Positions 37,720-53,361 of a DNA stretch of 64,000 nucleotides are shown here, piece after piece. Position numbers and translations under genes: made by a program. The notes beneath the pieces were generated by a model that was not told the DNA's origin, searched no databases, and saw nothing but the letters and a program-made list of their open reading frames with translations. This stretch comes from Saprospiraceae bacterium. Its GTDB lineage: Bacteria; Bacteroidota; Bacteroidia; Chitinophagales; Saprospiraceae. The stretch spans positions 2,904,364 through 2,968,363 of the forward strand of contig CBDCWO010000006.1 of assembly GCA_965223405.1 (NCBI GenBank), in the 5' to 3' direction. Every line of letters starts with the position of its first letter. Position 1 is the first letter of the stretch.

Positions 37720-38421
37720 TCAAATGTATCTTTCCCGCTTTTGTAAATTTATCAGAGCACCTAGGATAAAAACTACCGTTCCCACGCTTAAGAAAATCCG
37801 GCTTTTCCAAACGATTTGCTTCCAGGCCAGCTGACTGAATCCCCTGCGTGGGTCATAGGGATTTAAAAATACGTTCCAAAAAGTATCTTCCAGGAACTCA
37901 CTGAATATGGTCAATCCAACTCCGAGTATTACCATAACAACCGCCGTTGCATTACCATTTTTTATCCAGGTGGAAATCAAAAAAGCCAAACTACCCAGGA
38001 AGCAGATGGGAAACAACAATTGGATCGCTACTGAAACTGGATTTATTGGATACAACAACCAGGAACCAAGAGCAGCGAAAAGTATGAGTAAAATAAATAT
38101 TTGAGTAAATATCAGTACTAATCGAACCAGCCAAACTTTATAACGATAATCCGGAATACCAAAGTGGATTTCCAACATACGCGCATCCTCATCCCGTTGA
38201 ATCCCAAATACCACGGGATAAAAAATCAATAGAATGGCTGGAAAAAAAGTTAAAGAATAGATTGACCCAATATTGATTTCATCGTTTTCAAAAACACTTA
38301 TCACCATAAAAAATAGATAAAAAGCCAATGCGGCTACCAAAAACCAAAGAAAGCGTCCGGCAAAGATGACTTTCAAGTTATACTTGATCAAACTGCGGAT
38401 ATTTGTAATTGTATTGCGCAT
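37720..38421 (-). CDS. ABC-2-type permease-like integral membrane protein, translationally coupled (TAATG) to the upstream RND-ABC fusion gene
   Basis: 233 aa with 6 predicted TM helices. Its start codon overlaps the stop of the 38421-43112 gene by 1 nt. Confidence 0.5.
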   Translation of the reverse strand: MRNTITNIRSLIKYNLKVIFAGRFLWFLVAALAFYLFFMVISVFENDEINIGSIYSLTFFPAILLIFYPVVFGIQRDEDARMLEIHFGIPDYRYKVWLVRLVLIFTQIFILLILFAALGSWLLYPINPVSVAIQLLFPICFLGSLAFLISTWIKNGNATAVVMVILGVGLTIFSEFLEDTFWNVFLNPYDPRRGFSQLAWKQIVWKSRIFLSVGTVVFILGALINLQKRERYI

Positions 38422-41400
38422 TAGTTTTTAATATTCTTTAATAAACACAAATAGGCATCCTCCAAAACGGGATCAACGGAAATGGCCGATTCCTGGGGTT
38501 TATGTAGGGAAATACATCGGACCCGTATGTGATCACCTTCACGCAGGTGATTAACTACAACCTCTTCTGATTCAACCGTGGCAAAGTCCACTGCCGGGAT
38601 GATATATTCCCAAACCAGTCCTTGCGCCAGACCAAGCATATCCTGTGGTGAACCCTGGTATTTTACAGCACCATGATCCAACACGGCCAATTGATTGCAA
38701 GAACTGGCGATATCTTCGATGATATGAGTAGAAAACAGGACAATCCGATCACGGCTTAATTGTACCAGGAGGTTTCTGAAACGAATACGTTCGCGAGGAT
38801 CCAATCCGGCTGTCGGTTCATCGACGATTAATATTCGAGGCAAATGAAGTAATATTTGAGCGATACCAATACGTTGTTTCATTCCACCGGAAAAGGAACC
38901 GATTTTTTCATGTTTGCGATCCAACATATTTACAGAATCCAACACATAGAGTAATCGTTCCTCCCTTTTATTGCGGTCATGCAATCCTTTGAGGATGGCT
39001 TGATAATCAAGAAAAGCCCAGGCCGTCATATTGTCATAACTTCCAAATGCCTGAGGTAGATACCCAATTAATCCCTGAAGTTCTTCACGTTTCTCCTGCG
39101 TATCAATACCATTGATCCAGATCTTGCCATAACTTTGTTCGAAGATTCCAGAGATGATACGCATTAAAGTTGATTTCCCGGCTCCATTGGGTCCTAGCAG
39201 CCCATACATGCCGGTACCAATATTCAATGACACGGTATCAAGGGCCTTAAATGGGATTTTACGTCTACCAAGCAGTGGGATGCTGATAATCGAGCGATAA
39301 TAAAATCGTCTCAGCTTTCCCTTTATCCTTTCAACCTTTAGCTGTTTACGGTAGAAATATGCCGACGATTTATAAACAATCAATACCAAATACCAAACTA
39401 AACCCCAAAAAATGGTATATCCCCATTCCTCCCATTTCTGATTCATTTGAAAAAGTAATACCAGCGGACTGGCCCAAAATAGGAGTTCTCCCAAAATCAT
39501 TGGGATCCATTTCTTTTTATCAGAATAAACTAAATTAAAGGCTAACTTGAACGGTTGCCATATTCCCAATAATAGAAGATAAATGCCTATTCCAATCAGG
39601 AGTATCCAAAAGCCATCCTGCAAATAAGAAAATGCAAACCATCCTAAAAAGATTAGAAGAGGAATTTTCCAAATAAACTCACTTAACAATGCACCCCAGC
39701 GAATCTTACCTTCTTCGGATTGAAGAACAAAAGATGGTGTTTTGCTGTTTGACCACTCTCTTGAAAACCGACCGGGTCGATTGTAAATCTTTACCAGGTT
39801 TTGGACCTTAATGTATAATGCTTCATCGGTAGAGATCAGCCTGGTCTGAGCACGTTTTAGACTCGCTAAAATAAAATATGTAATAGCCGGAATCAGGAAG
39901 ACCAATAACAGGATATCCAGCAATTGCCATAGAAATGAAGTTACTCTGAAATAGATCAGTAACCCTCCACAGACGAAAAGGATGACATTCAATATTTTTA
40001 TCCATAGAGATAAACCTCTAAACCAATTAATGGTATTTTCTAACCCCAAATAGACTGTGGGGATCACGATTAAAGTAAGTACTGTTCCCAAAGCCAAACC
40101 TCCAATCACAGTTATTGCAAAAGGTGCTCCAATTACACTGACATATTCTGCTGTACCCAACGCCAAGGGAAACATAGCGGCAATAGTAGTAATAGCTGTA
40201 ATCAGGATTGGGCGTAACCTATGAAGTCCAGCAGTGATTAATGCCCGGATTTTACGATAGCCCTTTCTCCTCAAAGCATTGACATAATCAATCATGATGA
40301 TGCCATTGTTGACAATAACACCCAAAAGGATTAAAAATCCGGTGAGGGTATTGGCGTTGAATAATCCATTTCCGGTGATTGTTAAGGCTAATAGTGACCC
40401 TGTAGCGGCTAGTGGCACGGAAAACATCAATACAAAAGGTGCTGACAAAGATTCAAACACTGAAGCCAGGATAATGAAAATAAGGAGAATGGCTGCTCCT
40501 GCCAGTGCTTTAAAATCTTTGATCTGATCCTGGGCTGCTTCCATTTCGATAGCAATTCCCGGAGGGACCGGGTAGTTTGAGATTAGCAACTTTATGCTTT
40601 CCTGGTGCGCTTCCAGAAGTTCTTTTGACTGATTGGCTTCTTGAGAGCGAGTGTAAGAAATCTGTATTTGTTTCTGTTGGTTGATACGCCTGATATCATC
40701 ATAACTTTCACCTGTACGGATAGCAGATAAGGTGGACATTTCATGAGCTCCACCTTCTTGATCAATAACTTCCAACTTTTTGAGATCTGACATGGTTTTG
40801 GGTTGGAATCCTGATTGAAGGTCTTCATTATCGCGTATGATAATATTGTATTCATCGTCAACATATCTGAACTTGGTGTCCGCAGGTGCCTCTTGTTCGA
40901 AATTTCTTAATGCGATAGCAATATTTTCCGGAGTGACTTTATTTCTGGCCAGGGTTAAGGGGTCAAAGGCCAGCAATACTTCAGGTCGGTTGCCACGAGT
41001 GCTAAGATTAGCATTCCGGGTATCGTCCAGGTTTTGGATATAATATAGAAGATCCTGGGCAACTCTCTGCAACAATCCATAGTCCTCTCCTTTCACGACA
41101 ATTTTTTCCTGATTTTCACCAAAACCCATTAGTTGTCCCAGAGCATCCAATCCACCTAGGCCTTGAGAACCCTCACCGGAATTACTGGAAGCAAAACTAA
41201 TTCGAGCACCTCCGATGCGGCGGGTGAGATCTTCAATTTCCGATTTGATATCATTATAGGATCGATTATCTATTTTTTCAAAATCTTCTTTAAGCTTAAT
41301 ATTTACGACAGCATCTTCCTCCTGGATACGACTGCTGATATCTTGTTTCTCGGCGAGACCCTCTAGTTTAGATTCAATTTCGAGGACAATCTTATCTGTT

Positions 41401-43112
41401 TTCTCGATGGTACTGCCTTTGGCCATGGTTACAAAGACATCGATCTGATCCCTTTCTACTTCTTCAAGAGTATTAATACTGATAGCCAGAACGGCAAATG
41501 TAGTGATGAAAAACAAAACTAATCCACCAAGAATAGTTCTTGCCGGATATCGCAAACTGCTTTTTAGTAATACCAGATAGATGCGGGATGTTCGGTTCAT
41601 TTCATTCCGGCGACCAAATAGTCCTTTTTGTCGCTTACCATAAAATCCCAAACCAAGTAAAGCCAATACCGGAATCAACAACAAAGCGACTAATAAAGAA
41701 ACCATCAATGTAGATATAATCGATACGCCAATGTGTTTTCCGATCAGAGCGACCAGATAATTTCCAAAAAACAGAAAAGGGATAAATACTGTAGCCGTAG
41801 TCAAGGTTGCGGCAAAAATGGCCTTGGCTACTCCTGATACGCCCACAGAGACCGCTTTATCTGTCCGGATACCTGTAGATACTTTACGGTAAATATTCTC
41901 CAATACGACTATGCTGTTATCAAGTAACATTCCTATCGCCAGAGCCATACCTACGAGGGTTAAACTATTGATGGTTATTCCAGCTCCATAAAACAAATTG
42001 AAAGCGGCGAAAACAGAAACCGGAATCGATAAGGCTATTACAGAAACTAAACGAAGATCTTTAAGGAAAATCCATAATACGAAAACGGCCAGCAAACCCC
42101 CGATCAGGGCAAGATCTATTATCTGCTGGATATTTTCCTCCATGGTATCTGCAAGATTATTTTGAATTACAATTTGTACATCCTTGGCATGCAATTGATC
42201 ATTTAGTTGATTGATTAACTCTTTACAGCGATGTGAAAGCTCGATGATATTGGCTTGTGAGGCTTTGGTGGCAGTAAGAGAAATGGCGTCCTTTCCGTTA
42301 ACCCGGCTAATAGATGTCTCCTTGTCTACTCCAAAAGATATTTTGGCAACATCCCTTAATAGGATTGGTCCCGGGGCCATAACGGTGTTTTCAATATCTT
42401 TTACTTGGGTATATTCGGAGGCCGTGCGTACAAAAAGTCTGCGGTTTCCTTCGTACACGAATCCCGCCAGCGTTCTACTTCCTGAGTTCTGCATTAGCCG
42501 CGAACGCACTTGATCCGGAGTAATTTTATGGGGCTCGCAAGCTTGCTTATCCAATAGGATTTCAAGGGTTTTCTGTTGTCCTCCAAAAATATTAAGTGAA
42601 GCAATTCCGTCCAGGTTTTCAAAGGCTGGTCTGATTTCTTTTTCCGATATATTACGTAATCGATCGGTTCCTCCGCTACCACGAATCTGTAGTTCCAAGA
42701 ATTGATTGGTCAGCTGTTGCACATCTATTTTTGAAACTCGAACCAGGATATCTGATGGCAACTGACTCTTAACCGCATCAATCTTTTGCTGTAGTTTCAA
42801 AAAGACATATTTGAACTTAATTGATTGATCAAAACTGACTTGGATAAAAGCCCTATTACCATTAATTCGGGTATCGATCTTTTCTACTCCCTCCATGGTT
42901 CCGATTACTCCTTCCACTGGTATCACCCCCTGTTGTTCCAGGTATTGAGGGCTGATTTGTCTGGGCGATCCCACCTGTATAAAGAGCATAGGGAGCTCAG
43001 CATTTGGAAGTAACTCCACCGGTAAATATCGATAGGAAATATAACCCAATAGGCTCAAGCCTATGAATATCATACAGATGGTTACTTTCCTATGGATGAA
43101 TGCTAACTTCAT
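38421..43112 (-). CDS. fusion protein: a complete RND (AcrB/HAE1-type) efflux permease (aa ~1-1040), an additional ~6-TM region (aa ~1041-1285) and a C-terminal ABC-transporter ATP-binding domain (aa ~1286-1563)
   Basis: It is a single uninterrupted 1563-aa ORF. The RND hallmark is NSLTLVGMALAIGMLLDNSIVVLENIYRK plus a second-half equivalent. The C-terminal ABC domain has Walker A GPNGAGKST, a Q-loop, signature FSGGMKQR, Walker B ILIVDEPTAGLD and an H-loop STHII. Confidence 0.75.
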   Translation of the reverse strand: MKLAFIHRKVTICMIFIGLSLLGYISYRYLPVELLPNAELPMLFIQVGSPRQISPQYLEQQGVIPVEGVIGTMEGVEKIDTRINGNRAFIQVSFDQSIKFKYVFLKLQQKIDAVKSQLPSDILVRVSKIDVQQLTNQFLELQIRGSGGTDRLRNISEKEIRPAFENLDGIASLNIFGGQQKTLEILLDKQACEPHKITPDQVRSRLMQNSGSRTLAGFVYEGNRRLFVRTASEYTQVKDIENTVMAPGPILLRDVAKISFGVDKETSISRVNGKDAISLTATKASQANIIELSHRCKELINQLNDQLHAKDVQIVIQNNLADTMEENIQQIIDLALIGGLLAVFVLWIFLKDLRLVSVIALSIPVSVFAAFNLFYGAGITINSLTLVGMALAIGMLLDNSIVVLENIYRKVSTGIRTDKAVSVGVSGVAKAIFAATLTTATVFIPFLFFGNYLVALIGKHIGVSIISTLMVSLLVALLLIPVLALLGLGFYGKRQKGLFGRRNEMNRTSRIYLVLLKSSLRYPARTILGGLVLFFITTFAVLAISINTLEEVERDQIDVFVTMAKGSTIEKTDKIVLEIESKLEGLAEKQDISSRIQEEDAVVNIKLKEDFEKIDNRSYNDIKSEIEDLTRRIGGARISFASSNSGEGSQGLGGLDALGQLMGFGENQEKIVVKGEDYGLLQRVAQDLLYYIQNLDDTRNANLSTRGNRPEVLLAFDPLTLARNKVTPENIAIALRNFEQEAPADTKFRYVDDEYNIIIRDNEDLQSGFQPKTMSDLKKLEVIDQEGGAHEMSTLSAIRTGESYDDIRRINQQKQIQISYTRSQEANQSKELLEAHQESIKLLISNYPVPPGIAIEMEAAQDQIKDFKALAGAAILLIFIILASVFESLSAPFVLMFSVPLAATGSLLALTITGNGLFNANTLTGFLILLGVIVNNGIIMIDYVNALRRKGYRKIRALITAGLHRLRPILITAITTIAAMFPLALGTAEYVSVIGAPFAITVIGGLALGTVLTLIVIPTVYLGLENTINWFRGLSLWIKILNVILFVCGGLLIYFRVTSFLWQLLDILLLVFLIPAITYFILASLKRAQTRLISTDEALYIKVQNLVKIYNRPGRFSREWSNSKTPSFVLQSEEGKIRWGALLSEFIWKIPLLIFLGWFAFSYLQDGFWILLIGIGIYLLLLGIWQPFKLAFNLVYSDKKKWIPMILGELLFWASPLVLLFQMNQKWEEWGYTIFWGLVWYLVLIVYKSSAYFYRKQLKVERIKGKLRRFYYRSIISIPLLGRRKIPFKALDTVSLNIGTGMYGLLGPNGAGKSTLMRIISGIFEQSYGKIWINGIDTQEKREELQGLIGYLPQAFGSYDNMTAWAFLDYQAILKGLHDRNKREERLLYVLDSVNMLDRKHEKIGSFSGGMKQRIGIAQILLHLPRILIVDEPTAGLDPRERIRFRNLLVQLSRDRIVLFSTHIIEDIASSCNQLAVLDHGAVKYQGSPQDMLGLAQGLVWEYIIPAVDFATVESEEVVVNHLREGDHIRVRCISLHKPQESAISVDPVLEDAYLCLLKNIKN

Positions 43113-43151
43113 TTAGGTGTTTACTATTTCCATTGTCATTGTCATTGTCAT
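43113..43151 (-). promoter_or_regulatory. candidate leader-peptide uORF MTMTMTMEIVNT whose stop codon abuts the ATG of the RND-ABC gene (TAAATG)
   Basis: On the minus strand the sequence reads ATG ACA ATG ACA ATG ACA ATG GAA ATA GTA AAC ACC TAA directly 5' of the start codon at 43112. It is generated by a (CATTGT)n hexamer repeat. Confidence 0.35.
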
Positions 43152-43431
43152 TTGTCCATTTTCTATATGTACTTTCATTCAAAATTCCACCCCCTGCCCC
43201 CTCAAGGGTCCCTCAAGGGGGACAAAATTCTTCCATTACCATTGTGATTGCTATTGTCATTGCTATTGCCATTTGCTTATCCAATCTCCATTCATACTTT
43301 CATTCAAAATTCCACATCACATTTCCATTTGTCATCAACTTTTTCAGAAATACGGATACAATTACTATTGTCATTTATTTCAAGCAGATTTTCATTTTCA
43401 TTTCTTTATCTACTCAACATTGAATTCAATT
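43113..43431. repeat. repeat-rich intra-operon spacer: (CATTGT/CATTGC)n hexamer tracts and two diverged ~125-bp tandem units each ending in tactttcattcaaaattccac, plus the GC hairpin-like ccccctcaagggtccctcaaggggg
   Basis: Direct inspection: cattgtcattgtcattgtcatttgtccat at 43131-43160 and ccattgtgattgctattgtcattgctattgccatttgc at 43238-43275. The motif tactttcattcaaaattccac occurs at 43171 and 43296. Confidence 0.6.
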
Positions 43432-46400
43432 TCATTTGTCATTATTATTGTTGCCTCCAAAATCGATTGCCGAATAAACACAAGGAATCACGACAAGAGT
43501 CAGAAGCGTGGAGGTCACTAATCCTCCGATTACTGCCCAAGCCATGGGTGCTCTGAGGGCTGCACTTTCTCCAAATCCAAAGGTGAGCGGTAATAAAGCG
43601 AGTATGGTTGTAATACTGGTCATTAGAATAGGTCGTATTCGCTGCTGACCCGCAAGTACAATCGCATTGTTTCGACTTAATCCTCCACGCTTCAATTGGT
43701 TGATTCGATCCACAAGAATAATGGCATCGTTAACAGCTATGCCTACCAGCATGATGATACCTATAATGGCCATAATATTCAATGGAGTATTTAGCCAATA
43801 AAATGTAAAAATAGTGCCGACGACTGCAAGAGGAATCGTAAATAATATGATGAAAGGATGCAAAAGAGACTCAAATTGAGAGGCCATAACCATATAGACC
43901 AGGACTATGGATAAAATGAGAGAAAAAGTCAGACTTTGAAGTGATTGCTGTCGACGTGCTTCGTCTCCCACTACCGAAATACTGTAATTCGGTGGTAAAC
44001 TTATCGTGCTGGTTCGTTCTCGAATCTGGTTGGCCACGAATTCCAATGGTACTTGTTTGTCGGTTTGAGCGTAAACTTTTCCAATTCTGGCTTGATTACG
44101 TCGATGGATTTCCCGTGGTGCAATCGATGGGTTTAAAGTTGCGATTTCATGAAGACGATATTCTTTATCACCACCGTTGATGGTGATATTTTTAAAATCA
44201 TCCAGACCAATATCTGGCATCATCAGATCGATATCGATCATTTCCCCGGACTGTTCGATTTTTCCAGCAGTTTTGCCCTGCAATTGATCCTGGATTTGGG
44301 CAATCACATTACTCATATCCAAATTATACAAACCAAGTTTCAAGCGATCAAATAGAACTTCTATTTCCGGAGCTCCTTGTTCGATGGAAGTGCGCACATT
44401 TTGCAGCTCAGGCATATCCATTAAGCTATTCCGGACAGCTTGAGTAAGATCTTCTATGATATCCAAATTATCTCCTTTTATTTCCACTACCAATGGAGAT
44501 TCTTCCATGCTTAGGATGCTATTCAAAGAGGATACTTCAGGAGAGAATGAAAACTTAACACCAGATATTCCCGCAGTGATTTCATCGAGTGCCGAAATTA
44601 CATTTTGAGTTCCTAACCGGGTGCTATCAGTCAATGCTACTTCAATAATAGCGGTATGCTCACCTTGAAATAAAGAGGATCGATCTCCTCCTTCCAATTC
44701 GGTCTTCGGACCAATATGGCTATACACAAATTTAAGATCTTCATCCAATGCCTGCTGGATTATCCCTTCTACGTTGCTAATGGTAGCGGCTGTTCTGGCC
44801 AGGACAGTTCCCTCCGGCATTTGAACATTTACGCGAAATTTTTTGGTGGTGGATCTCGGCATGAATTCAGTACCAATCGAAGAATATAAATAAAGGGCTC
44901 CGGCCATAAGCAAAGCAGCGAGGAAAATAATCGCCCATTTTATTCTAAGCATGCCCTGTAGAAAGCCACCATATCTGCGGAGTTGAAATGATTTTGCCTT
45001 GGCAGGAGCATTCCTTTTTCGGTAAAAACGATGATATAACATCGGAATCACAAAAATAGCGACAAAAAGAGATGACAATAGTGAAAAGGCCACCGTCCAG
45101 GCTTGATCTTTAAACAGCTCGCCAGCTGCATCTTGTAAATAGACTACTGGCAGAAAAACAATAATCGTAGTCAATGTGGATGCAGTAATAGCCCCCCCAA
45201 CTTCAGCTGTACCAGTAATGACTGCGGATTTGGTGTCTGCGCCGGATTCGTGATTACGAAAAATATTTTCCAGGACTACAATGGCATTATCAACCAACAT
45301 TCCGGCACCCAAAGCAAGGCCGCCAAGTGTCATGATATTAATGGTCAGACCATTGAAATACATCAGTGTGAACGTCGCAATGATGGAAATAGGAATGGCT
45401 ATACCAATGATCAACGTCGTTCCAAAACGGTGCAAAAAGATAAAAAGAACGATAATTGCTAAGAGAATTCCAATTAACGCCGTTTCCTGAACTTCATCAA
45501 CAGCCGTTTTAATAAATGTGCCCTGATTCGAAATGATTTCAAAATGATATCCTGGAAGTGCAGACTCAATCACATCAAATGCCTCACTAATTTCTTCAAC
45601 GGCTTTGACCGTATTAAACCGGTTTTCCTTAAATATAGATAATCCGATGCAGCGATGGCCGTTGATCCGAACGATGTTTTTAGGTTCTTTATTAGTAAAC
45701 TTTGTTTCAGCAATGTCTTGCAAATAAATTGGAGTTCTATTGATATCGGCTTCATTTTCCGGTACGTTCAGATTTTCAGCTGTGGCTTGATCATGCTCTG
45801 AGCTTTCATTATAACCGATAATTAAATTATTGAAATCAGTCTCTGTCTCCAGCATACCTACTCCTTTTACTGTGTATCTTAGACCTAGGTCTTCTACAGT
45901 CCCTCCGGAAACATTTTGGTTGAAACTTTGAATTTTTTGGGTGATGTCATCAACGGTCAACTTGAAGGCTTTCAATTTATGCAGATCTGGTTTAATCACA
46001 ACTTCATGTTCTTCTTGTCCGGAAAGCGTAACCTGGGCAACTCCTTCAAGTCGCATTAATTCATTGCTGATGTAATTTTGGCTTATCTTCCTGAGTTCAT
46101 TTAAATCTGTAATTGAGGAATGAGAAATCCCTACTAGCATGATGGGTGCACTATTGGGATCAAACTGAGTTACATTGACGCGATCCAGTTCTCCACTTTG
46201 ATTAAAATCGTTTATGGCCTTCTGTAAATCCAGAAATGCTTCATCCATATCCTTGTTCCAATTGTATTCGATAGTCAGCTGGGCTGATCCGATACGGGTC
46301 ACTGAGGCAACCTGGGTGACACCTTGTTGTCTCATGGATAAAGCCTCGATTTGTTCTACATACTGCTTTTCAATTTCCTCCGGAGCCTTTTCACCGGCAT

Positions 46401-46551
46401 GAATTTCGATAAAAAGCCGGGGGGAGTTCAGATCCGGAAACAAGTCTACCCCTAATCGGGAGTATGATATGTACCCCAAAATGCATATTCCGAGTATTGC
46501 CATCAGAATGGTTACGGGAAAATTAACGGCAAATTGGATCAGTTTTTTCAT
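43432..46551 (-). CDS. RND (AcrB/AcrD/AcrF-family, HAE1) efflux permease
   Basis: 1039 aa with 12 TM and two large periplasmic loops. It has the motif INIMTLGGLALGAGMLVDNAIVVLENIFR. Its start overlaps the adaptor gene stop (ATGA). Confidence 0.9.
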   Translation of the reverse strand: MKKLIQFAVNFPVTILMAILGICILGYISYSRLGVDLFPDLNSPRLFIEIHAGEKAPEEIEKQYVEQIEALSMRQQGVTQVASVTRIGSAQLTIEYNWNKDMDEAFLDLQKAINDFNQSGELDRVNVTQFDPNSAPIMLVGISHSSITDLNELRKISQNYISNELMRLEGVAQVTLSGQEEHEVVIKPDLHKLKAFKLTVDDITQKIQSFNQNVSGGTVEDLGLRYTVKGVGMLETETDFNNLIIGYNESSEHDQATAENLNVPENEADINRTPIYLQDIAETKFTNKEPKNIVRINGHRCIGLSIFKENRFNTVKAVEEISEAFDVIESALPGYHFEIISNQGTFIKTAVDEVQETALIGILLAIIVLFIFLHRFGTTLIIGIAIPISIIATFTLMYFNGLTINIMTLGGLALGAGMLVDNAIVVLENIFRNHESGADTKSAVITGTAEVGGAITASTLTTIIVFLPVVYLQDAAGELFKDQAWTVAFSLLSSLFVAIFVIPMLYHRFYRKRNAPAKAKSFQLRRYGGFLQGMLRIKWAIIFLAALLMAGALYLYSSIGTEFMPRSTTKKFRVNVQMPEGTVLARTAATISNVEGIIQQALDEDLKFVYSHIGPKTELEGGDRSSLFQGEHTAIIEVALTDSTRLGTQNVISALDEITAGISGVKFSFSPEVSSLNSILSMEESPLVVEIKGDNLDIIEDLTQAVRNSLMDMPELQNVRTSIEQGAPEIEVLFDRLKLGLYNLDMSNVIAQIQDQLQGKTAGKIEQSGEMIDIDLMMPDIGLDDFKNITINGGDKEYRLHEIATLNPSIAPREIHRRNQARIGKVYAQTDKQVPLEFVANQIRERTSTISLPPNYSISVVGDEARRQQSLQSLTFSLILSIVLVYMVMASQFESLLHPFIILFTIPLAVVGTIFTFYWLNTPLNIMAIIGIIMLVGIAVNDAIILVDRINQLKRGGLSRNNAIVLAGQQRIRPILMTSITTILALLPLTFGFGESAALRAPMAWAVIGGLVTSTLLTLVVIPCVYSAIDFGGNNNNDK

Positions 46552-47603
46552 CTCAATATTTTCACTTTGGACTTATTGCGTAGTGTTTCAAATCCCTTAA
46601 CAACCAGACGTTCGTTTTCTTCTAAACCACTGATTACTTCGATCTGATCTTCATTTTCGAGTCCGGTTGTAATCATACGTTCGAAGGCGGTGTTTTCCTG
46701 AACTACAAATACCCTTTTACCTCTCTGATCAGAAATAATCACTTCCTTGGGGATGGTGATGATGTCCTCTTTTTGATCGACTTTGATAAGTATTTTGACA
46801 AACATCCCGGGACGTATCAACAGTTTTGGATTGCTGAAGCGGACTCTGCCTAAATAGGTACGGGTATTGACGTCGATGGCTGGTGAAAGTTCAGTAATAG
46901 TTCCCGGTATGGTATCATTTGGTAAGCTGTAATTGGTGATTTGCACTTTCTGTCCTGGTTTTACTTCCATCATGGTATTTTCCGGCAGACTTACATCCAC
47001 ATACATGCGAGAATAATTCATGACTGTGACCAATGGATTGCCTTGTTGAATTATACTATTTTGCGTGTAGTGTGGAAGCTTCACTATGACGCCAGAAACC
47101 GGTATTTCAACCCGCATCTTCTCCAATCGTATCTGGGCATTTTCAAGGTCTTTCTTGGCATTTGTCAGCTGCAATTCCGAATTTCGTAATTCTCGCAAAG
47201 TAACCCCACCTTTGTCGAAAACAGATTTTTGTTTTTCATATTCCTGTTGTGCCAATTCAAGATTCATTTTCACTGACTCCAATCCAATGTTGTTTACATA
47301 TTCTTTATCTTCAATTTCGACAAAAGCTTGTCCGGCTTTGACCCAATCGCCTAATTTATATGGACGTTTTCGCGTTGGATGATTTTTTAGCTTGTATTTG
47401 CCATTAATTTGGGCCGTCAGTTCAATCTCTTTATCAGCCAGCGCATTTCCAGTAGCAATGGTATGCCGGGTTAAAGAACCGCTTTTTATTTCTACAACAG
47501 ATACAGGAGCGGCAATATCTATATTGGGGCTTTCCTCTTCGGTCTGGTTACAGGCGAGAAGGATTAGCAAAGCATAAATGAGGATATAATATTGTTTTTT
47601 CAC
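46548..47603 (-). CDS. efflux RND transporter periplasmic adaptor subunit (membrane fusion protein, HlyD/AcrA family)
   Basis: 351 aa. It has a lipoprotein-like signal (LLILLACNQ), a coiled-coil hairpin, a lipoyl/beta-barrel pattern, and a C-terminal MP domain. Confidence 0.85.
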   Translation of the reverse strand: MKKQYYILIYALLILLACNQTEEESPNIDIAAPVSVVEIKSGSLTRHTIATGNALADKEIELTAQINGKYKLKNHPTRKRPYKLGDWVKAGQAFVEIEDKEYVNNIGLESVKMNLELAQQEYEKQKSVFDKGGVTLRELRNSELQLTNAKKDLENAQIRLEKMRVEIPVSGVIVKLPHYTQNSIIQQGNPLVTVMNYSRMYVDVSLPENTMMEVKPGQKVQITNYSLPNDTIPGTITELSPAIDVNTRTYLGRVRFSNPKLLIRPGMFVKILIKVDQKEDIITIPKEVIISDQRGKRVFVVQENTAFERMITTGLENEDQIEVISGLEENERLVVKGFETLRNKSKVKILR

Positions 47604-47637: not shown

Positions 47638-49149
47638 CTAGTTATCCGACGGAAGCGCTATTGACACGGGTTCATTTTTTTCCCAATCGAAGAGTGTGAG
47701 TATTTTTAAATCCAGTAATTGTGTTTTATAATTAATTAAGGCACGAGCGTAGTCAATTTTCTTGGTAGATAGCTGATTCTGAAATTGATTAAGATCAATT
47801 CCTGATAAATCACCATTGATATACCTTTCAAGATTGATTTCATACGTTCTTTGCGCATTTTCTACACTTTTTTTGGCAATTTCGATACGAGGCATTTGAG
47901 TTTGAATATTACGGTAGGAACGGCGGATATCCATTCGTATCTGTTTGCGATCTTCAGCCAGGTCCAACCGCTGTGATCGCATGGATACTTCCTGGGCTCG
48001 AATCCGGGCTTCTCGTTCACCCCAATCGAAAATTGGTATGTTAAATGAAATTCCGATACTGGGGTTATTGGTAGGCATATTATAAATCTTGCCAAACTGC
48101 TCATCGTCCCCAAATATCCCTAGGGTCAACTGAAGATCTGCTCTAAACTCATTTTGGGCTTTAGTTCTTTCCAGTTCGAAAAATGATTTTTCAATGTTAA
48201 TTTGTCTTTGTTGGAGTTCCATGCGGGATTTCAAAGCATATTCGATGGCTTTTTCCAAATCCACGACTACAGGTATTGCTTCTAAATCAGTAGATAGCTG
48301 AATCTGCTGATCAAGGTTCATTCCAATTTCTCTTTTGAATGATTCTTCGGCATTCGTCAAAGCCAGTTCGCTATCCTGAAGTGACAGCTGAGCATTGGCA
48401 AAATTGAGTTCGGCCTGGTACAACTCCTCCTGTGCCAGCAATCCTGCTTCAACTTTGTTTTTCACGATCTCAAAATTTTTAGAAGTATTCTCCAGTTCAT
48501 CTTTGGCAATATCCAGGTTCAATTGAGCAAGATAGACATCAAAAAACTGACTGGTAATCGTTTTCTCCAGTGTTAATCGCTGAATAGCGTATTCCAAGCT
48601 GGCATTCTGATAGTTTAATTCCAATTCCTCAAGTTGCATTTTTCTTCGATTGAAAGTAAAGATCGGTTGGTTAAAGGCCAGATATAAATTATTGTAAAAC
48701 GCTTTATTGGAATTCTCTCCGAAACCCACAATTTCAGATTTGTTATTGCGCCAGCTTAAATTGTTGATTAAAGCAATAGTGCCATCGGTTTTCAAGATGG
48801 GTTGTTCTACCCGGAAAGATCCGGAAGAAAATACTTCCTTATTAGTGAACCACTGAGAAAACTGATTATCAAAACTCCGGCGGTTACTGAAGTTGAATGG
48901 ATCCAGAGTTAGGGAAAACCGTGATTTCAAGGATGCCCTTTCAGCTTCCAAGCTGAATTGATATTGTTCGATATTAAAAAGAGAACGCTGAATTGAAGGA
49001 CTTCCTTGTTCCGCTATTTCCATGGCCGACTCCAGAGTCAGTAGAGTCTGGGTAGATCCCGGTTGTGCAAGCAAAAATACAAACAACAAGAATCCGTGGG
49101 ATACAACTGAAGGTGCAATTCTAAATATTTTTAAGTATTTCATAATCAT
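47638..49149 (-). CDS. TolC-family outer membrane efflux protein
   Basis: 503 aa with a signal peptide and two repeated OEP halves with the characteristic coiled-coil-rich pattern (LTLESAMEIAEQGSPSIQRS...). Confidence 0.8.
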   Translation of the reverse strand: MIMKYLKIFRIAPSVVSHGFLLFVFLLAQPGSTQTLLTLESAMEIAEQGSPSIQRSLFNIEQYQFSLEAERASLKSRFSLTLDPFNFSNRRSFDNQFSQWFTNKEVFSSGSFRVEQPILKTDGTIALINNLSWRNNKSEIVGFGENSNKAFYNNLYLAFNQPIFTFNRRKMQLEELELNYQNASLEYAIQRLTLEKTITSQFFDVYLAQLNLDIAKDELENTSKNFEIVKNKVEAGLLAQEELYQAELNFANAQLSLQDSELALTNAEESFKREIGMNLDQQIQLSTDLEAIPVVVDLEKAIEYALKSRMELQQRQINIEKSFFELERTKAQNEFRADLQLTLGIFGDDEQFGKIYNMPTNNPSIGISFNIPIFDWGEREARIRAQEVSMRSQRLDLAEDRKQIRMDIRRSYRNIQTQMPRIEIAKKSVENAQRTYEINLERYINGDLSGIDLNQFQNQLSTKKIDYARALINYKTQLLDLKILTLFDWEKNEPVSIALPSDN

Positions 49150-49159
49150 AGATTTTGAT

Positions 49160-52100
49160 CTAATCCATTTTTACCAATTTAATTGCATCGGCAAAAATTG
49201 CTCTGAGTCTGGATTCATTACTTAATGTAATAGTAGCTGTATCTGCTGTAAAAACATAATCGCCAAGGGAGTTCCAACCACCCGGAGATTGGTGGGATAA
49301 TTCGATACTTGGACGGTCTATTCCATTCGCATGGGGTATCACAAATTGATAATTTCCTTTTTGACCGCGATTCCAATTGAATGAATCGTCTTTATACACA
49401 TGATAAAAGACATCATATCTTCCCGGTTCGGATATCGGAATATTCCATTTGGCTTCCTTGGAGCCATCCCCGGCTTTGATGTAGAAGGCGGATCTAATGA
49501 ATTCTCCAAAAAAGCGATCATTGGTCGTTGCCGTCCAATTGAGAGGTGCACGCCATACCATAGTACCCTGATACTTGAAATCATCGTCCACTTCCGCTTT
49601 CAACCATTTGCGAAGCCGGCTTACTTCTTCAAAATGGGTAAATTCGAAACTGGGATTTTCATTGTCAACAATGATCTCATTATCATTTACGATCACCAGG
49701 GGGTTAGCAACGATTTCCTGTTTTTCTACAGCATTGGTAACCTTAGTTTTGTTAATGACTTCAAAGGAATAGTCAATCTGGTTGGGTAGATTTCCCGAAG
49801 TAAGTGTATTAAAATGGATACCGGCCGGTTCAGTCAGTGATAAATAAAATGCTTCTTTAGTTTGCCCTGGCTCGAGATATATCAATTTTTCCTGGGTATC
49901 TCCTGGGCGAAGTTTGGATTTCACTACACCTCCCGTTGTCCCCAAGTTTGAAATCTTAAAGCGAACCCGGTTCATTTCTCGATTCCCCACCAACACCTTC
50001 TCGGCCACAGGAGTGCTAAATAGATATTGAGCCATATCGGTTTCGTTAAACCATTTGGTCATATGTTGGGATAAATCCACTCCAAATTCGGCGTAAATGT
50101 GTTTTTGGAACTCTGCAAATTTTAGATTTTTGAAACGATATTCTTGCAACAACTGGATTACATATTCTCGAAACCGGTCTGTTTTTGCAATGGCTTGAAT
50201 CATTGAAAAGAGCATCTCTCCCTTTAATTCTATAACATTGTCTATCAAAGATTGGTGTTCCGATAGATTTAGAATTTGGGCAAAGGATTTTTCCTGTAAA
50301 ACCATATTGGCCAATTCATTTTGGGTACTGCCGCTTGTCTGTCGCATCCAATCCCTGCCGCGATTGTTTTCGATTCGTAAATAAGACTCAAAGACACGAT
50401 TTAGAACTGGCCAATCTTTTGAATCCAGATTGTTACACATTTCATATAATTGACCAAATTGATAGTACGGATTTAAAGTTTCTTCTACCTGCGCCCTACC
50501 GGCATTAAAATTGGTGTTGATGTTTTTGAATCGGTAAAATTCTTCTAAGAATACATGGAGTACCTCGATTTGCAATTCCTCAGCAGTTTTATTTCGGCGG
50601 CGGTTCCACCTTTTGCGACGCTTGACGGATCCATTAAAATCCAAATTCCTGGTGTACAAGCCTTTTTCCGGTATCAATACTTGTCCGGGTTGGATTGTCT
50701 GATGAACTGAGGTCCAATTGCGATCATAGGTTTTGAATTGACCAGGAACCTCGATGATTGTAAATTTATCAAATGGGTATTTTAGCCCGGATTGCCGTTC
50801 AAAATCTCTTAACCTTTCTTCAATAATTGAAGGGAGGGTATCTCTTATATCCTGAAAGGCATTATTAAAATAGTCATGGCCATCGATGTAATAGAGTGAA
50901 AACTTCATGCTATCGGTATCCAAGGTGGTCCGTTTGTAATTTCCTATTGCTACTGACAGTTGAGGTAAACCATAGTCACGTTCAAAAAAATAAGTGTTTT
51001 CTTCCAGTTGTGTAGGATGACCTTGTGAAATCGGAATCAATCCGGGCAGAGTTTTTATGGTCAATTGGTAATTGACAAAATCCTTTCGATACCAGAATGG
51101 TGATGCATTACTATATCCGACTCCTGATTGGGGATACCATTGCGCTTCAGGTGTTAACAGTAGATATTGCGGATGGATAAATGCGTATCTACTCCCAATA
51201 TCAAATAAATAATTCTTCTTTTTTTCAGATTTAAGTTTTTCATCAATATCCAAATAGCAGGCATTTTCGTCAATTGTACCCTGATATTCTATGCGCAATT
51301 CGATTGAAGTTTCAATAGGCAAAATAGTATCAAATCGAACTATCAACAATTGTAATTTTCGCTCATATTCCAATTCCTTTGCTATTGATGAAACAGATAT
51401 GACTTTTAGTCCCGGATTTAAAGTAAAAACAAATTCGCTAGCCGCTGTCTCCGTATAACCTTTTATTCTTGAAACGGCCTTGTAATCGGACTCATTTTGT
51501 TCCAATCTAATTTCATGATCTTCAATATCAATTTGGGCATGCGAGATATAGCTATTATTCAGTGCAATCATTTCTGCCGATAAGACTTTGTGTTCCTGAT
51601 AATTCTTTAAATGCTGGTGGCCGAGGTAAAGAGCAGATCCAATTGCCAGGACACCCAACATAAAAGATGAGATATTTATTAATCTGGATTGGGGTAAACG
51701 ATTTGAAATGAGGATAGAAAAAAACATGAAACCTAAACCCAAACAAGTATACATTACCCGCAGACTCAATATCGTAGGCCAGTCTCCAAAACCGACTAAT
51801 TCCGAATGAAATAAAGGGAGATAAAAGGCCATATAATCAAAGAGGTAATTGTGGGATCCGCGTAAATAAATTAAGCTGGAAAGGATATAACCCAATAGCA
51901 GAACAAAAGTCAATGCCTGATTACGGATAACTCCCATTAAAAAGATAGACAATCCAACAATAAATGTTAACGTAGGAACAGAGATTAACAGTGGATAGTA
52001 CAAATAAGCCTGCCAATCGACGTAGGTATCCTTGGCTAGTAAATTAAAAACCAGCGCCATCAACAATGCCACCACGTTGATCAATAGAAATATGGACAAG

Positions 52101-52435
52101 ATGCTCCAAACTTTACCAAACAGATATGTGGCATTACTCATGGACCGAACATAAAAGACCTCGGTGGTGTCCTGTTTTCGGTCACGTTTTATAAATTCTG
52201 AAGACAAGAATACAGCAATAATTGCCTGTGCGACATTTAGGATAAATAGATTGGCATAAGGAAGATTTGCAGGGATTGCCCGATACACCCATTCCATATC
52301 ACCCACCTCAGAAATTTCACCCATATTGAATGCAAATAGTACAAATAGTGAGAGCACCGAGAAAATTCTAAAAAACCAACTCCGCATTAGAATTTTGCGC
52401 TCGTATTTTGCTATCGTTCTAAAAGTAAAGATCAT
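49160..52435 (-). CDS. ABC-2-family permease (6 TM, aa 1-300) fused to a ~790-aa extracytoplasmic domain of unassigned fold (possibly M1-aminopeptidase-like, but no HExxH)
   Basis: 1091 aa. The N-terminal polytopic domain is like GldF/ABC-2 permeases. It lies directly downstream of an ABC ATPase gene. The large soluble C-terminal region has no zinc motif. Confidence 0.6.
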   Translation of the reverse strand: MIFTFRTIAKYERKILMRSWFFRIFSVLSLFVLFAFNMGEISEVGDMEWVYRAIPANLPYANLFILNVAQAIIAVFLSSEFIKRDRKQDTTEVFYVRSMSNATYLFGKVWSILSIFLLINVVALLMALVFNLLAKDTYVDWQAYLYYPLLISVPTLTFIVGLSIFLMGVIRNQALTFVLLLGYILSSLIYLRGSHNYLFDYMAFYLPLFHSELVGFGDWPTILSLRVMYTCLGLGFMFFSILISNRLPQSRLINISSFMLGVLAIGSALYLGHQHLKNYQEHKVLSAEMIALNNSYISHAQIDIEDHEIRLEQNESDYKAVSRIKGYTETAASEFVFTLNPGLKVISVSSIAKELEYERKLQLLIVRFDTILPIETSIELRIEYQGTIDENACYLDIDEKLKSEKKKNYLFDIGSRYAFIHPQYLLLTPEAQWYPQSGVGYSNASPFWYRKDFVNYQLTIKTLPGLIPISQGHPTQLEENTYFFERDYGLPQLSVAIGNYKRTTLDTDSMKFSLYYIDGHDYFNNAFQDIRDTLPSIIEERLRDFERQSGLKYPFDKFTIIEVPGQFKTYDRNWTSVHQTIQPGQVLIPEKGLYTRNLDFNGSVKRRKRWNRRRNKTAEELQIEVLHVFLEEFYRFKNINTNFNAGRAQVEETLNPYYQFGQLYEMCNNLDSKDWPVLNRVFESYLRIENNRGRDWMRQTSGSTQNELANMVLQEKSFAQILNLSEHQSLIDNVIELKGEMLFSMIQAIAKTDRFREYVIQLLQEYRFKNLKFAEFQKHIYAEFGVDLSQHMTKWFNETDMAQYLFSTPVAEKVLVGNREMNRVRFKISNLGTTGGVVKSKLRPGDTQEKLIYLEPGQTKEAFYLSLTEPAGIHFNTLTSGNLPNQIDYSFEVINKTKVTNAVEKQEIVANPLVIVNDNEIIVDNENPSFEFTHFEEVSRLRKWLKAEVDDDFKYQGTMVWRAPLNWTATTNDRFFGEFIRSAFYIKAGDGSKEAKWNIPISEPGRYDVFYHVYKDDSFNWNRGQKGNYQFVIPHANGIDRPSIELSHQSPGGWNSLGDYVFTADTATITLSNESRLRAIFADAIKLVKMD

Positions 52436-52455: not shown

Positions 52456-53361
52456 CTAACTGGTCAATATCGATTTGGAATTATTTTTAATGGTATGTTC
52501 AACAAAGTAGACATAGGCATGCTCTAAATTTGGGGGTATTGCTTCCGCATTATAACCACTTACATCATCACCGACCACAATGACCTTCCAACCATCCTTC
52601 ATCATCATGGTGGATACCACTTGAAATTTTTGATTAACGTCCATGTATTCCTGCTCCGATACATGAATAGACCATACATGGTTTTGGGCCTGTTGAATAA
52701 GTTTTTCCGGAGACCCTGAAAACGCTACCTTTCCCTTATTTAAAAGAGCCATATGCTCACAAGTGCTGGAAATATCCGCCACAATATGCGTCGAAAGGAT
52801 AATAATGACATCTTGTGAACTCAAGTGGGCTAACAGATTTCGAAATCGAATACGCTCTTCGGGATCCAGTCCGGTAGTAGGTTCATCTACTACGATTATT
52901 TTTGGATTATTAATTAAAGCTTGAGCGATACCAAGTCGTCGTTTCATACCACCTGATAACTTACCTGCTTTACGGCTTCTCACATCAAAAAGACCAACTT
53001 CTTCCAGCAAATGGTCTACGGCCTGAGTTCGTTCACGTTTGGTTTTCATGCCGGCCAGTCGAGCTGCATAATCCAAAAACTCATGAGTTTTCAAGTTGGA
53101 GAAAAAGCTAAAATCCTGAGGTAAGTACCCTAGCATGCTACGTACGTAATCTCGGTTTTCTGCAACATCTTTTCCGTTTACTAACACTTTGCCACTACTG
53201 GGTTTCATCAAAGTCACCAAAATTCGCATTAAACTGGATTTACCCGCACCATTTGGTCCAAGCAACCCGAACATACCTTCCTTAATTTCAAGATTAATAT
53301 CATGGAGGGCATGATTTCCGTTTGGATAAACTTTGTTCAAGCCTTGTATTGAGATATTCAT
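52456..53361 (-). CDS. ABC transporter ATP-binding protein (ABC-2/GldA-like), paralogous to the NBD fused to the RND gene
   Basis: 301 aa. It has Walker A GPNGAGKSS, signature LSGGMKRR, Walker B IIVVDEPTTGLD and H-loop LSTHIV. It shares long identical stretches with the 38421-43112 C-terminal domain (LDPEERIRFRNLL vs LDPRERIRFRNLL). Confidence 0.9.
   Translation of the reverse strand: MNISIQGLNKVYPNGNHALHDINLEIKEGMFGLLGPNGAGKSSLMRILVTLMKPSSGKVLVNGKDVAENRDYVRSMLGYLPQDFSFFSNLKTHEFLDYAARLAGMKTKRERTQAVDHLLEEVGLFDVRSRKAGKLSGGMKRRLGIAQALINNPKIIVVDEPTTGLDPEERIRFRNLLAHLSSQDVIIILSTHIVADISSTCEHMALLNKGKVAFSGSPEKLIQQAQNHVWSIHVSEQEYMDVNQKFQVVSTMMMKDGWKVIVVGDDVSGYNAEAIPPNLEHAYVYFVEHTIKNNSKSILTS

What the first reader, a model, noticed from the sequence alone, without database searches (positions are those of the whole stretch)
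38421..43112. Single ORF fusing a complete RND (AcrB-type) pump to extra TM helices and an ABC ATPase domain
RND pumps are driven by proton-motive force and ABC transporters by ATP, and they are normally separate proteins. Here 1563 codons run without a stop from an AcrB-like N-terminus through about six extra TM helices into a fully intact nucleotide-binding domain. That domain has Walker A GPNGAGKST, signature FSGGMKQR, Walker B ILIVDEPTAGLD and an H-loop. The gene is TAATG-coupled to a downstream ABC-2-type permease, and a second conventional RND gene lies directly upstream, giving an MdtBC-like pair. A pump combining both energy-coupling modules would be an undescribed architecture. Alternatively the ABC half-transporter may simply use the RND trimer as a scaffold.
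Basis: partly seen in the sequence, partly recalled or inferred. Interest (0 to 1): 0.9.

Follow-up and report, generated by a model that had tools for sequence, protein, structure and literature searches.

The report
RND efflux pump fused to ABC ATPase
One 1563-residue membrane protein really does join a complete proton-driven RND efflux pump to an ATP-driven ABC motor, and this fusion recurs with the same six neighbouring genes across many Bacteroidota, yet I found no paper describing it.

The parts
52456..53361 (-). Free ABC ATPase (301 aa), first gene of the conserved cassette and a paralogue of the fused NBD
   Evidence: PF00005, E 4e-33. It is DrrA/GldA-like but scores below both curated cut-offs. 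It is 42% identical to the fused NBD over 276 aa, including the C-terminal domain. It is conserved upstream in L017-L019.
49160..52435 (-). 1091-aa protein: N-terminal ABC-2-like membrane domain (about 7 TM), then a large, presumably periplasmic, region with an M1-peptidase-like segment lacking HExxH and a Golvesin_C domain
   Evidence: Pfam gives Golvesin_C at E 3e-13, and weak hits to ABC2_membrane_2 (E 2e-4) and Peptidase_M1 (E 6e-4). No HExxH or GxMEN motif is present. The protein sits directly upstream of the OMF gene in all 10 loci that reach that far.
47638..49149 (-). Outer-membrane factor (TolC-like, 503 aa)
   Evidence: PF02321 OEP, two repeats, E 6e-44; syntenic in 10 loci.
46548..47603 (-). 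Membrane-fusion (periplasmic adaptor) protein, 351 aa, probably a lipoprotein
   Evidence: HlyD_D23 and HlyD_3. The N-terminus reads LLILLAC. Its 3' end overlaps the RND start by 4 nt.
43432..46551 (-). Conventional partner RND permease (1039 aa)
   Evidence: PF00873, E 2.5e-207. It is 27% identical to the RND half of the fusion. TM4 reads VDNAI. TM10 reads VNDAI, an Asp that the fusion lacks; this is conserved in 9 of 10 sequences (window plus 8 of 9 orthologues).
43113..43431 (-). Repeat-rich spacer between the two RND genes. In other genomes this junction is a 4-nt overlap, or holds a four-helix-bundle protein gene.
40047..43112 (-). RND half of the fusion (aa 1-1022): 12 TM helices and two large periplasmic loops
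   Evidence: PF00873 covers aa 4-1022. Relay positions are D398, N399, N935, R967 and T972 (AcrB D407, D408, K940, R971, T978), invariant or near-invariant in 132 sequences.
39843..40025 (-). Extra TM13-TM14 hairpin (aa 1030-1090)
   Evidence: Hydropathy; AlphaFold helices at model residues 26-46 and 50-79, pLDDT 80-92.
39699..39842 (-). Cytoplasmic loop (aa 1091-1138) carrying the invariant IKVQNLVKIY motif, the probable beta1 strand and A-loop Tyr of the NBD
   Evidence: L, V, K and Y are invariant. The motif matches the N-terminus of the free ATPase, ISIQGLNKVY. It also matches the beta1 strands of ABCA1 NBD1 and NBD2, at E about 1 only. ABC profiles start at about position 16 when aligned near Walker A.
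39348..39698 (-). Extra TM15-TM18 (aa 1139-1255), a four-helix membrane insertion between beta1 and the rest of the NBD
   Evidence: AlphaFold helices at model residues 129-153, 157-185, 192-217 and 220-245; positive-inside charge pattern; no similarity to ABC-2 TMDs.
38631..39347 (-). Pre-NBD segment and NBD core (aa 1256-1494) with all catalytic motifs
   Evidence: PF00005 covers aa 1292-1435. Motifs are invariant. Mean column identity is 0.86, the highest of any segment.
38424..38630 (-). C-terminal domain after the NBD (aa 1495-1563), resembling the regulatory domain of NosF, TM_1403 and ABCA
   Evidence: Foldseek alignments span about 290-300 residues of TM_1403, NosF and ABCA NBD-plus-R-domain chains. 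The domain also aligns with the C-terminus of the free ATPase.
37720..38421 (-). 233-aa 6-TM protein, the type V (ABC-2) transmembrane domain partner, translationally coupled by TAATG

Best explanation
The gene encodes a real, conserved single polypeptide. It covalently tethers a type V (ABC-2 class) ABC exporter to a tripartite RND efflux pump.

Shown: the N-terminal 1022 residues are a full-size RND permease. Six extra TM helices return the chain to the cytoplasm, where an intact NosF/ABCA-class NBD sits. The translationally coupled downstream 233-aa protein has the type V exporter membrane fold and is the NBD's likely membrane partner. The gene always sits in one seven-gene cassette with a second RND, one adaptor, one outer-membrane factor and a second ABC-2 module.

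Inferred: the RND half assembles with the upstream RND paralogue into a heterotrimer under the adaptor and outer-membrane channel, as MdtB2C does. The ABC module uses ATP to move the unknown substrate out of the cytoplasm or inner leaflet. It hands the substrate directly to the RND module, which expels it across the outer membrane. This would be a hard-wired version of the two-stage efflux that normally relies on separate transporters. The trimer-versus-dimer mismatch could be solved in two ways: two fusion protomers per trimer whose NBDs homodimerise, or one fusion protomer whose NBD pairs with the 42%-identical free ATPase of the same operon. The four TM helices inserted between NBD strand beta1 and the rest of the domain would pin the NBD against the membrane next to its partners.
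For: The ORF and domains are intact. All ATPase motifs are invariant in 132 homologues spanning 36-78% identity. Full-length orthologues occur in isolates and complete genomes. The 271-aa linker hits only 79 of 1.84 billion representative proteins, and in every full-length hit it follows an RND at about aa 1025-1300. The apparent 'split' versions are frameshifts in long-read assemblies or contig ends. The seven-gene order was seen complete (free ATPase through 6-TM protein) in the window and three loci, and the ten loci with upstream flank show no departure from it. The downstream protein has the type V TMD fold, and its most conserved segment lies where the coupling helix should be. The NBD resembles NosF, TM_1403 and ABCA. 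The topology places the NBD in the cytoplasm. There is precedent for a two-RND heterotrimer with divided labour, MdtB2C (PMC7015380; PMC4338810). There is also precedent for inner-membrane transporters feeding trans-envelope pumps (PMC4338810 abstract).
Against: No experiment or multimer model supports any subunit contact, stoichiometry or substrate hand-over. The substrate is unknown. The RND half lacks the AcrB D408 and K940 equivalents, and the TM10 Asp of its own partner, so it may not be a normal proton-driven protomer. The two RND paralogues are only 27% identical, and heterotrimer formation is assumed. The six extra TM helices resemble nothing known, so their role is guesswork. The linker-plus-NBD model is only moderately confident (pLDDT 71, pTM 0.42).
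Confidence: 0.45

Rival explanations
1. ATP-powered RND. ATP binding and hydrolysis by the fused NBD, transmitted through TM13-18, would drive or gate the conformational cycle of an RND protomer that has lost normal proton coupling. The ABC part would act as a motor for the RND rather than as a transporter in its own right.
For: The fusion has N at the AcrB D408 and K940 positions in 132 of 132 sequences. It also lacks the TM10 Asp that the partner RND keeps. In AcrB, substituting any one relay residue abolishes transport (PMC8277102). The tether is never broken in evolution. RND TM8-12 and the NBD core are the two most conserved segments.
Against: The NBD has its own dedicated, co-translated type V membrane partner with a highly conserved coupling-loop region, which points to a genuine ABC transporter. 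The fusion retains Asp in TM4 plus Arg and Thr in TM11; Asp(TM4) plus Arg(TM11) is the set that is essential in SecDF (PMC8277102 section 5.7.6.3). The partner RND also lacks D408 and K940, so this is partly a subfamily trait. No conserved charged residues in TM13-18 suggest a transmission device.
Confidence: 0.15
2. One four-component heterodimeric ABC exporter docked on the RND. The fused NBD would pair with the free ATPase, and the 6-TM protein with the membrane domain of the 1091-aa protein. A single asymmetric ABC-2 transporter would then be attached to a (partner)2(fusion)1 RND trimer.
For: The two NBDs are 42% identical paralogues that share the C-terminal domain. Both ABC modules are present wherever the sequence reaches far enough. 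A single NBD per RND trimer would need an outside partner.
Against: Both NBDs have fully canonical motifs with no degenerate site, which is uninformative rather than supportive. The two membrane domains show no detectable sequence similarity (hhalign probability 0.4%). Gene order pairs each NBD with its own membrane protein, as in homodimeric systems.
Confidence: 0.2
3. Scaffold or co-localisation only. The ABC-2 exporter and the RND pump would handle unrelated steps, and the fusion would merely ensure co-assembly or equal expression, or the NBD would act as an ATP-sensing regulator.
For: Nothing observed demands substrate hand-over. Domain fusions often reflect co-localisation.
Against: The fusion and the whole cassette are strictly retained down to 36% identity, with no natural split found. 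This argues for tight functional coupling. Fully conserved catalytic residues argue against a purely regulatory, non-hydrolysing NBD.
Confidence: 0.15
4. Artefact: an assembly chimera or a missed frameshift or stop joins two separate genes.
For: None. Frameshifted copies exist in some long-read metagenome assemblies, but those break the gene rather than join it.
Against: The same 1550-1580-aa ORF appears in more than 120 independent clusters, including isolate genomes.
Confidence: 0.01

Closest known systems
MdtABC / MuxABC-OpmB (tripartite pumps with two RND paralogues forming a B2C heterotrimer)
   Same: Two adjacent RND genes share an operon with a single adaptor and an outer-membrane factor. 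Relay residues differ between the two paralogues, which echoes the division of labour reported for MdtB and MdtC (PMC4338810).
   Different: The paralogues are 27% identical rather than about 50%. One carries six extra TM helices and an ABC NBD. Both lack the canonical D408 and K940. Heterotrimer formation is untested.
Type V (ABC-2) exporters with separate NBD and 6-TM subunits, especially NosDFY; also PmtCD, Wzm-Wzt, KpsMT, ABCG and ABCA
   Same: The NBD plus C-terminal domain resembles NosF, TM_1403 and ABCA. The downstream 6-TM protein has the NosY/ABCG fold, and its gene is adjacent and translationally coupled. The second module's permease carries a large periplasmic domain, loosely like NosY with NosD.
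   Different: The NBD is covalently attached to an RND permease and appears interrupted by four TM helices. The 6-TM protein matches no ABC-2 Pfam model.
MacAB-TolC (ATP-driven tripartite efflux pump)
   Same: ATP hydrolysis, an adaptor and an outer-membrane channel act in one envelope-spanning export system.
   Different: MacB is a type VII mechanotransmission ABC protein with its own periplasmic domain and no RND component (PMC5985334, listed). Here the periplasmic machinery is a full RND and the ABC part is type V.
Two-stage efflux by cooperating separate transporters (inner-membrane pumps feeding AcrAB-TolC-type pumps)
   Same: The proposed logic is the same: one transporter moves substrate into the periplasm or outer leaflet, and the RND complex expels it (PMC4338810 abstract).
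   Different: In known cases the transporters are independent proteins. Here they are one polypeptide in a fixed cassette.
CFTR NBD1 regulatory insertion between strands beta1 and beta2 (recalled from memory, not tested here)
   Same: It is an insertion at the same loop of an ABC NBD.
   Different: CFTR's insertion is a short soluble segment. Here it is about 165 residues forming four TM helices.

Membership tests
RND superfamily (AcrB/AcrD/AcrF, PF00873) | Full-length match to the family profile above the curated threshold | tested here: met
   507 bits against a cut-off of 28; aa 4-1022 cover profile positions 4-1018 of 1021.
RND superfamily (AcrB/AcrD/AcrF, PF00873) | 12 TM helices in two repeats, each with a large periplasmic loop after its first helix | tested here: met
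   Hydropathy places TM1 at about aa 9-27, TM2-6 at 331-487, TM7 at 526-544 and TM8-12 at 869-1017, with loops of about 300 and 320 aa.
HAE-1 type multidrug RND (AcrB-like) | Proton-relay set D407, D408 (TM4), K940 (TM10), R971 and T978 (TM11) | tested here: not met
   The fusion has D398, N399, N935, R967 and T972. N at both the D408 and K940 positions is invariant in 132 sequences. The definition of the relay comes from PMC8277102.
HAE-1 type multidrug RND (AcrB-like) | Score above the NCBIfam subfamily or equivalog cut-offs | tested here: not met
   The best hit is NF033617 at 425 bits against a cut-off of 1250. MdtB, MdtC and AcrB equivalogs score far below their cut-offs.
RND tripartite pump | Adaptor (MFP) and outer-membrane factor genes in the same operon | tested here: met
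   The HlyD-family gene at 46548-47603 and the OEP gene at 47638-49149 lie on the same strand and are syntenic in 10 loci.
RND tripartite pump | Trimeric assembly with the adaptor and OMF | not testable with these tools
   No multimer prediction or experiment was available.
MdtBC-like heterotrimeric RND | Two paralogous RND genes adjacent in one operon with one adaptor | tested here: met
   The two genes overlap by 4 nt in L007 and L019.
MdtBC-like heterotrimeric RND | B2C heterotrimer as the only active form; orthology to MdtB or MdtC | tested here: not met
   Orthology is not met: the equivalog scores are 236-252 bits against cut-offs of 1584-1774, and the two paralogues are 27% identical. 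Stoichiometry is not testable.
ABC ATPase (PF00005) | Walker A, Q-loop, signature, Walker B with catalytic Glu, D-loop and H-loop | tested here: met
   All motifs are present and 98-100% conserved in 132 sequences. PF00005 scores 98 bits against a cut-off of 25.
ABC ATPase (PF00005) | Contiguous domain with the beta1 strand and A-loop aromatic residue immediately before Walker A | tested here: inconclusive
   ABC profiles align only from about position 16. An invariant IQNLVKIY motif lies about 190 aa upstream and resembles the free paralogue's N-terminus and ABCA1 beta1 (E about 1). The in-silico deletion construct did not extend the profile match, and the model has low confidence in that region.
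Type V (ABC-2) exporter | NBD of the DrrA/NosF/ABCA class | tested here: met
   The top NCBIfam NBD hits are GldA and DrrA. The top Foldseek hits are TM_1403, NosF and ABCA1/3/4/7.
Type V (ABC-2) exporter | Partner membrane domain with the 6-TM type V fold (N-terminal interface helix, coupling helix between TM2 and TM3) | tested here: met
Type V (ABC-2) exporter | Assembly of two NBDs with two TMDs | not testable with these tools
   No multimer prediction was available.
GldA gliding-motility ABC ATPase (TIGR03522) | Score above the equivalog cut-off | tested here: not met
   166 bits for the fused NBD and 203 bits for the free ATPase, against a cut-off of 402.6.

The most novel reading that the evidence does not exclude
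The fused NBD would directly energise or gate an RND protomer whose proton relay has been reduced. This would be the first ATP-coupled RND transporter, with TM13-18 acting as the force-transmitting element and the split NBD as its lever. The complex would therefore draw on both ATP and proton-motive force within one heterotrimer.
Probability: 0.15. Interest if true: 0.95.

Novelty: new variant of a known kind. Interest (0 to 1): 0.72.

Why it matters
RND pumps (secondary active, trimeric) and ABC transporters (primary active, dimeric) are treated as separate energy classes of efflux machinery. I found no review or paper that mentions a covalent hybrid. This family shows that evolution has fixed the two classes in one polypeptide, inside an invariant seven-gene cassette, across at least two orders of Bacteroidota. 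The family would allow several questions to be tested directly. How is a 3-fold machine coupled to a 2-fold one? Can cytoplasm-to-periplasm and periplasm-to-outside export be hard-wired together? Can an RND protomer be driven or gated by ATP? It also supplies a new membrane module (TM13-18), a probable example of an ABC domain interrupted by TM helices, and a large uncharacterised family of type V membrane subunits that has no Pfam model. Cultured hosts exist (Flavilitoribacter nigricans DSM 23189, Portibacter species, Maribellus luteus), so experiments are feasible.

Tried and rejected
- **Artefact hypothesis:** rejected on conservation.
- **Natural split versions:** the short homologues listed proved to be frameshifted long-read assemblies (L016, L020) or contig-edge fragments (L021).
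- **Sequence identification of the 233-aa protein:** Pfam and NCBIfam gave nothing. A profile-profile comparison with the membrane domain of the 1091-aa protein gave probability 0.4%. Only the fold search worked.
- **In-silico deletion of TM15-18:** this was meant to test whether ABC profiles would then extend to strand beta1. There was no gain in score or alignment range, so the test was inconclusive.
- **Profile of the beta1 loop against PDB sequences:** ABCA1 NBD1 and NBD2 beta1 strands were among the top hits, but at E about 1 and alongside unrelated proteins. This is suggestive only.
- **Extra TM helices versus ABC-2 membrane domains:** hhalign found no similarity.
- **'The fusion's RND is proton-dead':** not sustained. 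The partner RND shares the D-N motif in TM4, and the fusion keeps the Asp(TM4)/Arg(TM11) pair that is essential in SecDF.
- **GldA, MdtB and MdtC membership:** rejected on curated cut-offs.
- **Literature:** seven searches for any description of an RND-ABC fusion found none. The main review of tripartite pumps does not mention one in the 300,000 characters held.
Full report
**Observation**

The minus strand carries an uninterrupted ORF of 1563 codons at 38421..43112. Pfam places a full-length AcrB/AcrD/AcrF domain on aa 4-1022 (E 1e-151, profile positions 4-1018 of 1021). It places an ABC_tran domain on aa 1292-1435 (E 9e-28). The stop codon overlaps the start of the next gene as TAATG. A conventional 1039-aa RND gene lies directly upstream.

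**Is it an artefact?**

No.
- A scan of one genome per species with the C-terminal 553 aa found nine close loci, all Saprospiraceae or other Bacteroidia. Seven of them hold an intact ORF of 1560-1569 aa, including the isolate Flavilitoribacter nigricans DSM 23189. The other two (L002, L008) are cut by contig ends.
- A search with the whole protein returned more than 115 clusters of 1548-1577 aa that carry both Pfam domains. They come from Portibacter lacus, Portibacter marinus, Maribellus luteus, Prolixibacteraceae JC049, Mariniphaga and several complete 5-7 Mb chromosomes.
- More divergent members, down to 36% identity, include a Rikenellaceae MAG and a cluster whose named members are Latescibacterota MAGs.
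- The window's own protein is in public databases, on a 7.17-Mb contig.
- Shorter homologues that looked like split genes are frameshifts in long-read assemblies (L016 and L020) or contig-edge fragments (L021).

**The linker is specific to the fusion**

The 271 residues between the RND and the Walker A region were compared by HMMER with 1.84 billion representative proteins. Only 79 matched. In every full-length hit the match lies at about aa 1025-1300, directly after an RND. The linker shows no profile similarity to ABC-2 membrane domains.

**Topology**

Hydropathy finds the 12 RND helices and five of the six extra ones; TM18 falls below the threshold. The AlphaFold model of aa 1011-1563 has six long helices in the linker at pLDDT 80-92. 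The predicted cytoplasmic loops hold 11, 4 and 13 Lys+Arg, against 1, 0 and 1 in the periplasmic loops. The number of extra helices is even, so the NBD is cytoplasmic.

**A probable split NBD**

ABC profiles align to the region near Walker A only from about profile position 16, so the first strand is missing there. The cytoplasmic loop between TM14 and TM15 lies about 190 residues upstream. It contains IKVQNLVKIY, whose L, V, K and Y are invariant in 132 sequences.

The free ATPase of the same operon starts with ISIQGLNKVYPNGNHALHDINL, which is the same pattern followed directly by strand 2. A profile of the loop, searched against PDB sequences, picked the first strands of ABCA1 NBD1 (VSIQNLVKVY) and NBD2, although only at E about 1.

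I read this as the beta1 strand and A-loop tyrosine being separated from the rest of the domain by a four-helix membrane insertion. This is likely but not proven. The deletion construct did not extend the profile match, and the model is unconfident in that region.

**The ABC half has a proper membrane partner**

The downstream 233-aa protein has six hydrophobic segments and no Pfam or NCBIfam hit. It belongs to a large family of unnamed proteins of 228-243 aa.

The fused NBD with its C-terminal domain resembles TM_1403, NosF and the ABCA NBD plus regulatory domain. The ABC half therefore looks like a real type V exporter, not a stray ATPase.

**The cassette**

The same seven genes occur in the same order in the window and in loci from Portibacter marinus, Maribellus luteus and another Marinilabiliales-like chromosome. 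The order is:
1. free ABC ATPase (about 300 aa)
2. an approximately 1100-aa protein
3. OMF
4. MFP
5. RND
6. RND-ABC fusion
7. 6-TM protein

In all 10 comparison loci that extend upstream, the C-terminus of the 1100-aa protein sits directly before the OMF gene.

The 1091-aa protein has about seven TM segments with a weak ABC-2 match. It also has an M1-peptidase-like region without HExxH and a Golvesin_C domain. The extra seventh helix should place this large region in the periplasm, which is an inference. The free ATPase is 42% identical to the fused NBD over 276 residues, including the C-terminal domain.

**Proton relay**

Alignment to AcrB and MexB maps AcrB D407, D408, K940, R971 and T978 to D398, N399, N935, R967 and T972. 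These are invariant or nearly so in 132 sequences. In AcrB, changing any one relay residue abolishes transport (PMC8277102).

The partner RND also has D-N in TM4 and N at the K940 position. It carries an Asp one residue later in TM10 (VNDAI), found in 9 of 10 sequences (window plus 8 of 9 orthologues), where the fusion has Asn.

So both proteins are non-canonical, and the fusion has one membrane carboxylate fewer than its partner. The fusion keeps Asp in TM4 and Arg in TM11, and that pair is the essential set in SecDF (PMC8277102 section 5.7.6.3). Proton coupling is therefore neither shown nor excluded.

**Mechanism**

Shown: one polypeptide joins an RND permease to the ATPase of a type V ABC exporter, within a fixed operon that also encodes everything needed for a tripartite pump and a second ABC-2 module.

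Inferred: the ABC module moves the substrate out of the cytoplasm or inner leaflet. The RND module, probably a heterotrimer with its paralogue as in MdtB2C (PMC7015380, PMC4338810), then expels it through the OMF. This is the known two-stage logic of cooperating transporters (PMC4338810), made permanent by fusion.

The trimer-versus-dimer mismatch could be met in two ways: two fusion protomers per trimer, or pairing of a single fused NBD with the free paralogue. I could not test either. The rival readings are an ATP-driven RND, a single heterodimeric ABC transporter, and a mere scaffold. None is excluded. The dedicated, conserved membrane partner argues against the NBD being only a motor for the RND. 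The substrate is unknown, and genes flanking the cassette are not conserved.

**Novelty**

Seven full-text searches found no description of an RND-ABC fusion. The main review of tripartite systems does not mention one in the part held. Databases hold the proteins under automatic names. Both building blocks are well known. The covalent combination, the family-specific six-helix linker, the probable split NBD and the fixed seven-gene cassette appear to be undescribed. I rate it a new variant of known kinds, of high interest to transport specialists.

Noticed in passing
window 43113-43431 (- strand); L001 6519-6866, L004 6533-6877, L009 6602-6949: The 319-bp spacer between the two RND genes is filled with hexamer-periodic repeats (aatgacaat, aatggcaat), a 39-nt direct repeat in two copies, and CCCTCAAGGG twice. 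In three related genomes the same junction holds a 115-116-aa 'four helix bundle protein' gene (TIGR02436, E 6e-16) flanked by the same hexamer repeats. In others the two RND genes overlap by 4 nt. The window's spacer looks like an empty or decayed insertion site of that small element.
   Followed up: partly
window 49160-52435 (-): This 1091-aa protein combines an ABC-2-like membrane domain, an M1-aminopeptidase-like region with no HExxH zinc motif, and a Golvesin_C domain. It is paired with its own ATPase and conserved in every copy of the cassette. Its function is unknown, and the peptidase-like domain is presumably non-catalytic.
   Followed up: partly
window 37720-38421 (-): The 233-aa 6-TM protein belongs to a large family (6704 database hits at E <= 0.001; the 120 listed are 228-243 aa, unnamed or 'hypothetical'). 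No Pfam or NCBIfam model recognises it, although its predicted fold is clearly that of a type V ABC exporter membrane domain.
   Followed up: yes
window 43432-46551 (-): The 'conventional' partner RND also lacks the canonical AcrB relay. It has D-N in TM4 and N-D in TM10, and no Lys at the K940 position. This suggests an RND subfamily with a different proton-coupling arrangement.
   Followed up: partly
L016 2434-7132; L020 4865-9578: In two long-read metagenome assemblies the fusion gene is called as two overlapping genes (652+931 aa and 1059+525 aa). These are most likely indel errors. Such fragments populate protein databases as apparent half-RND-plus-ABC proteins.
   Followed up: partly
window 53552-54331 (-): A 259-aa ORF lies just upstream of the cassette. 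It has one N-terminal hydrophobic segment, no family match, and no counterpart in the related loci.
   Followed up: no
L016, L017, L018 downstream of the 6-TM gene: In the three Marinilabiliales-type loci whose downstream genes were listed, a U32 peptidase gene (419 aa) follows the cassette. In L017 and L018 a 291-297-aa gene with no family match comes next. This is absent in the window and in Saprospiraceae.
   Followed up: no
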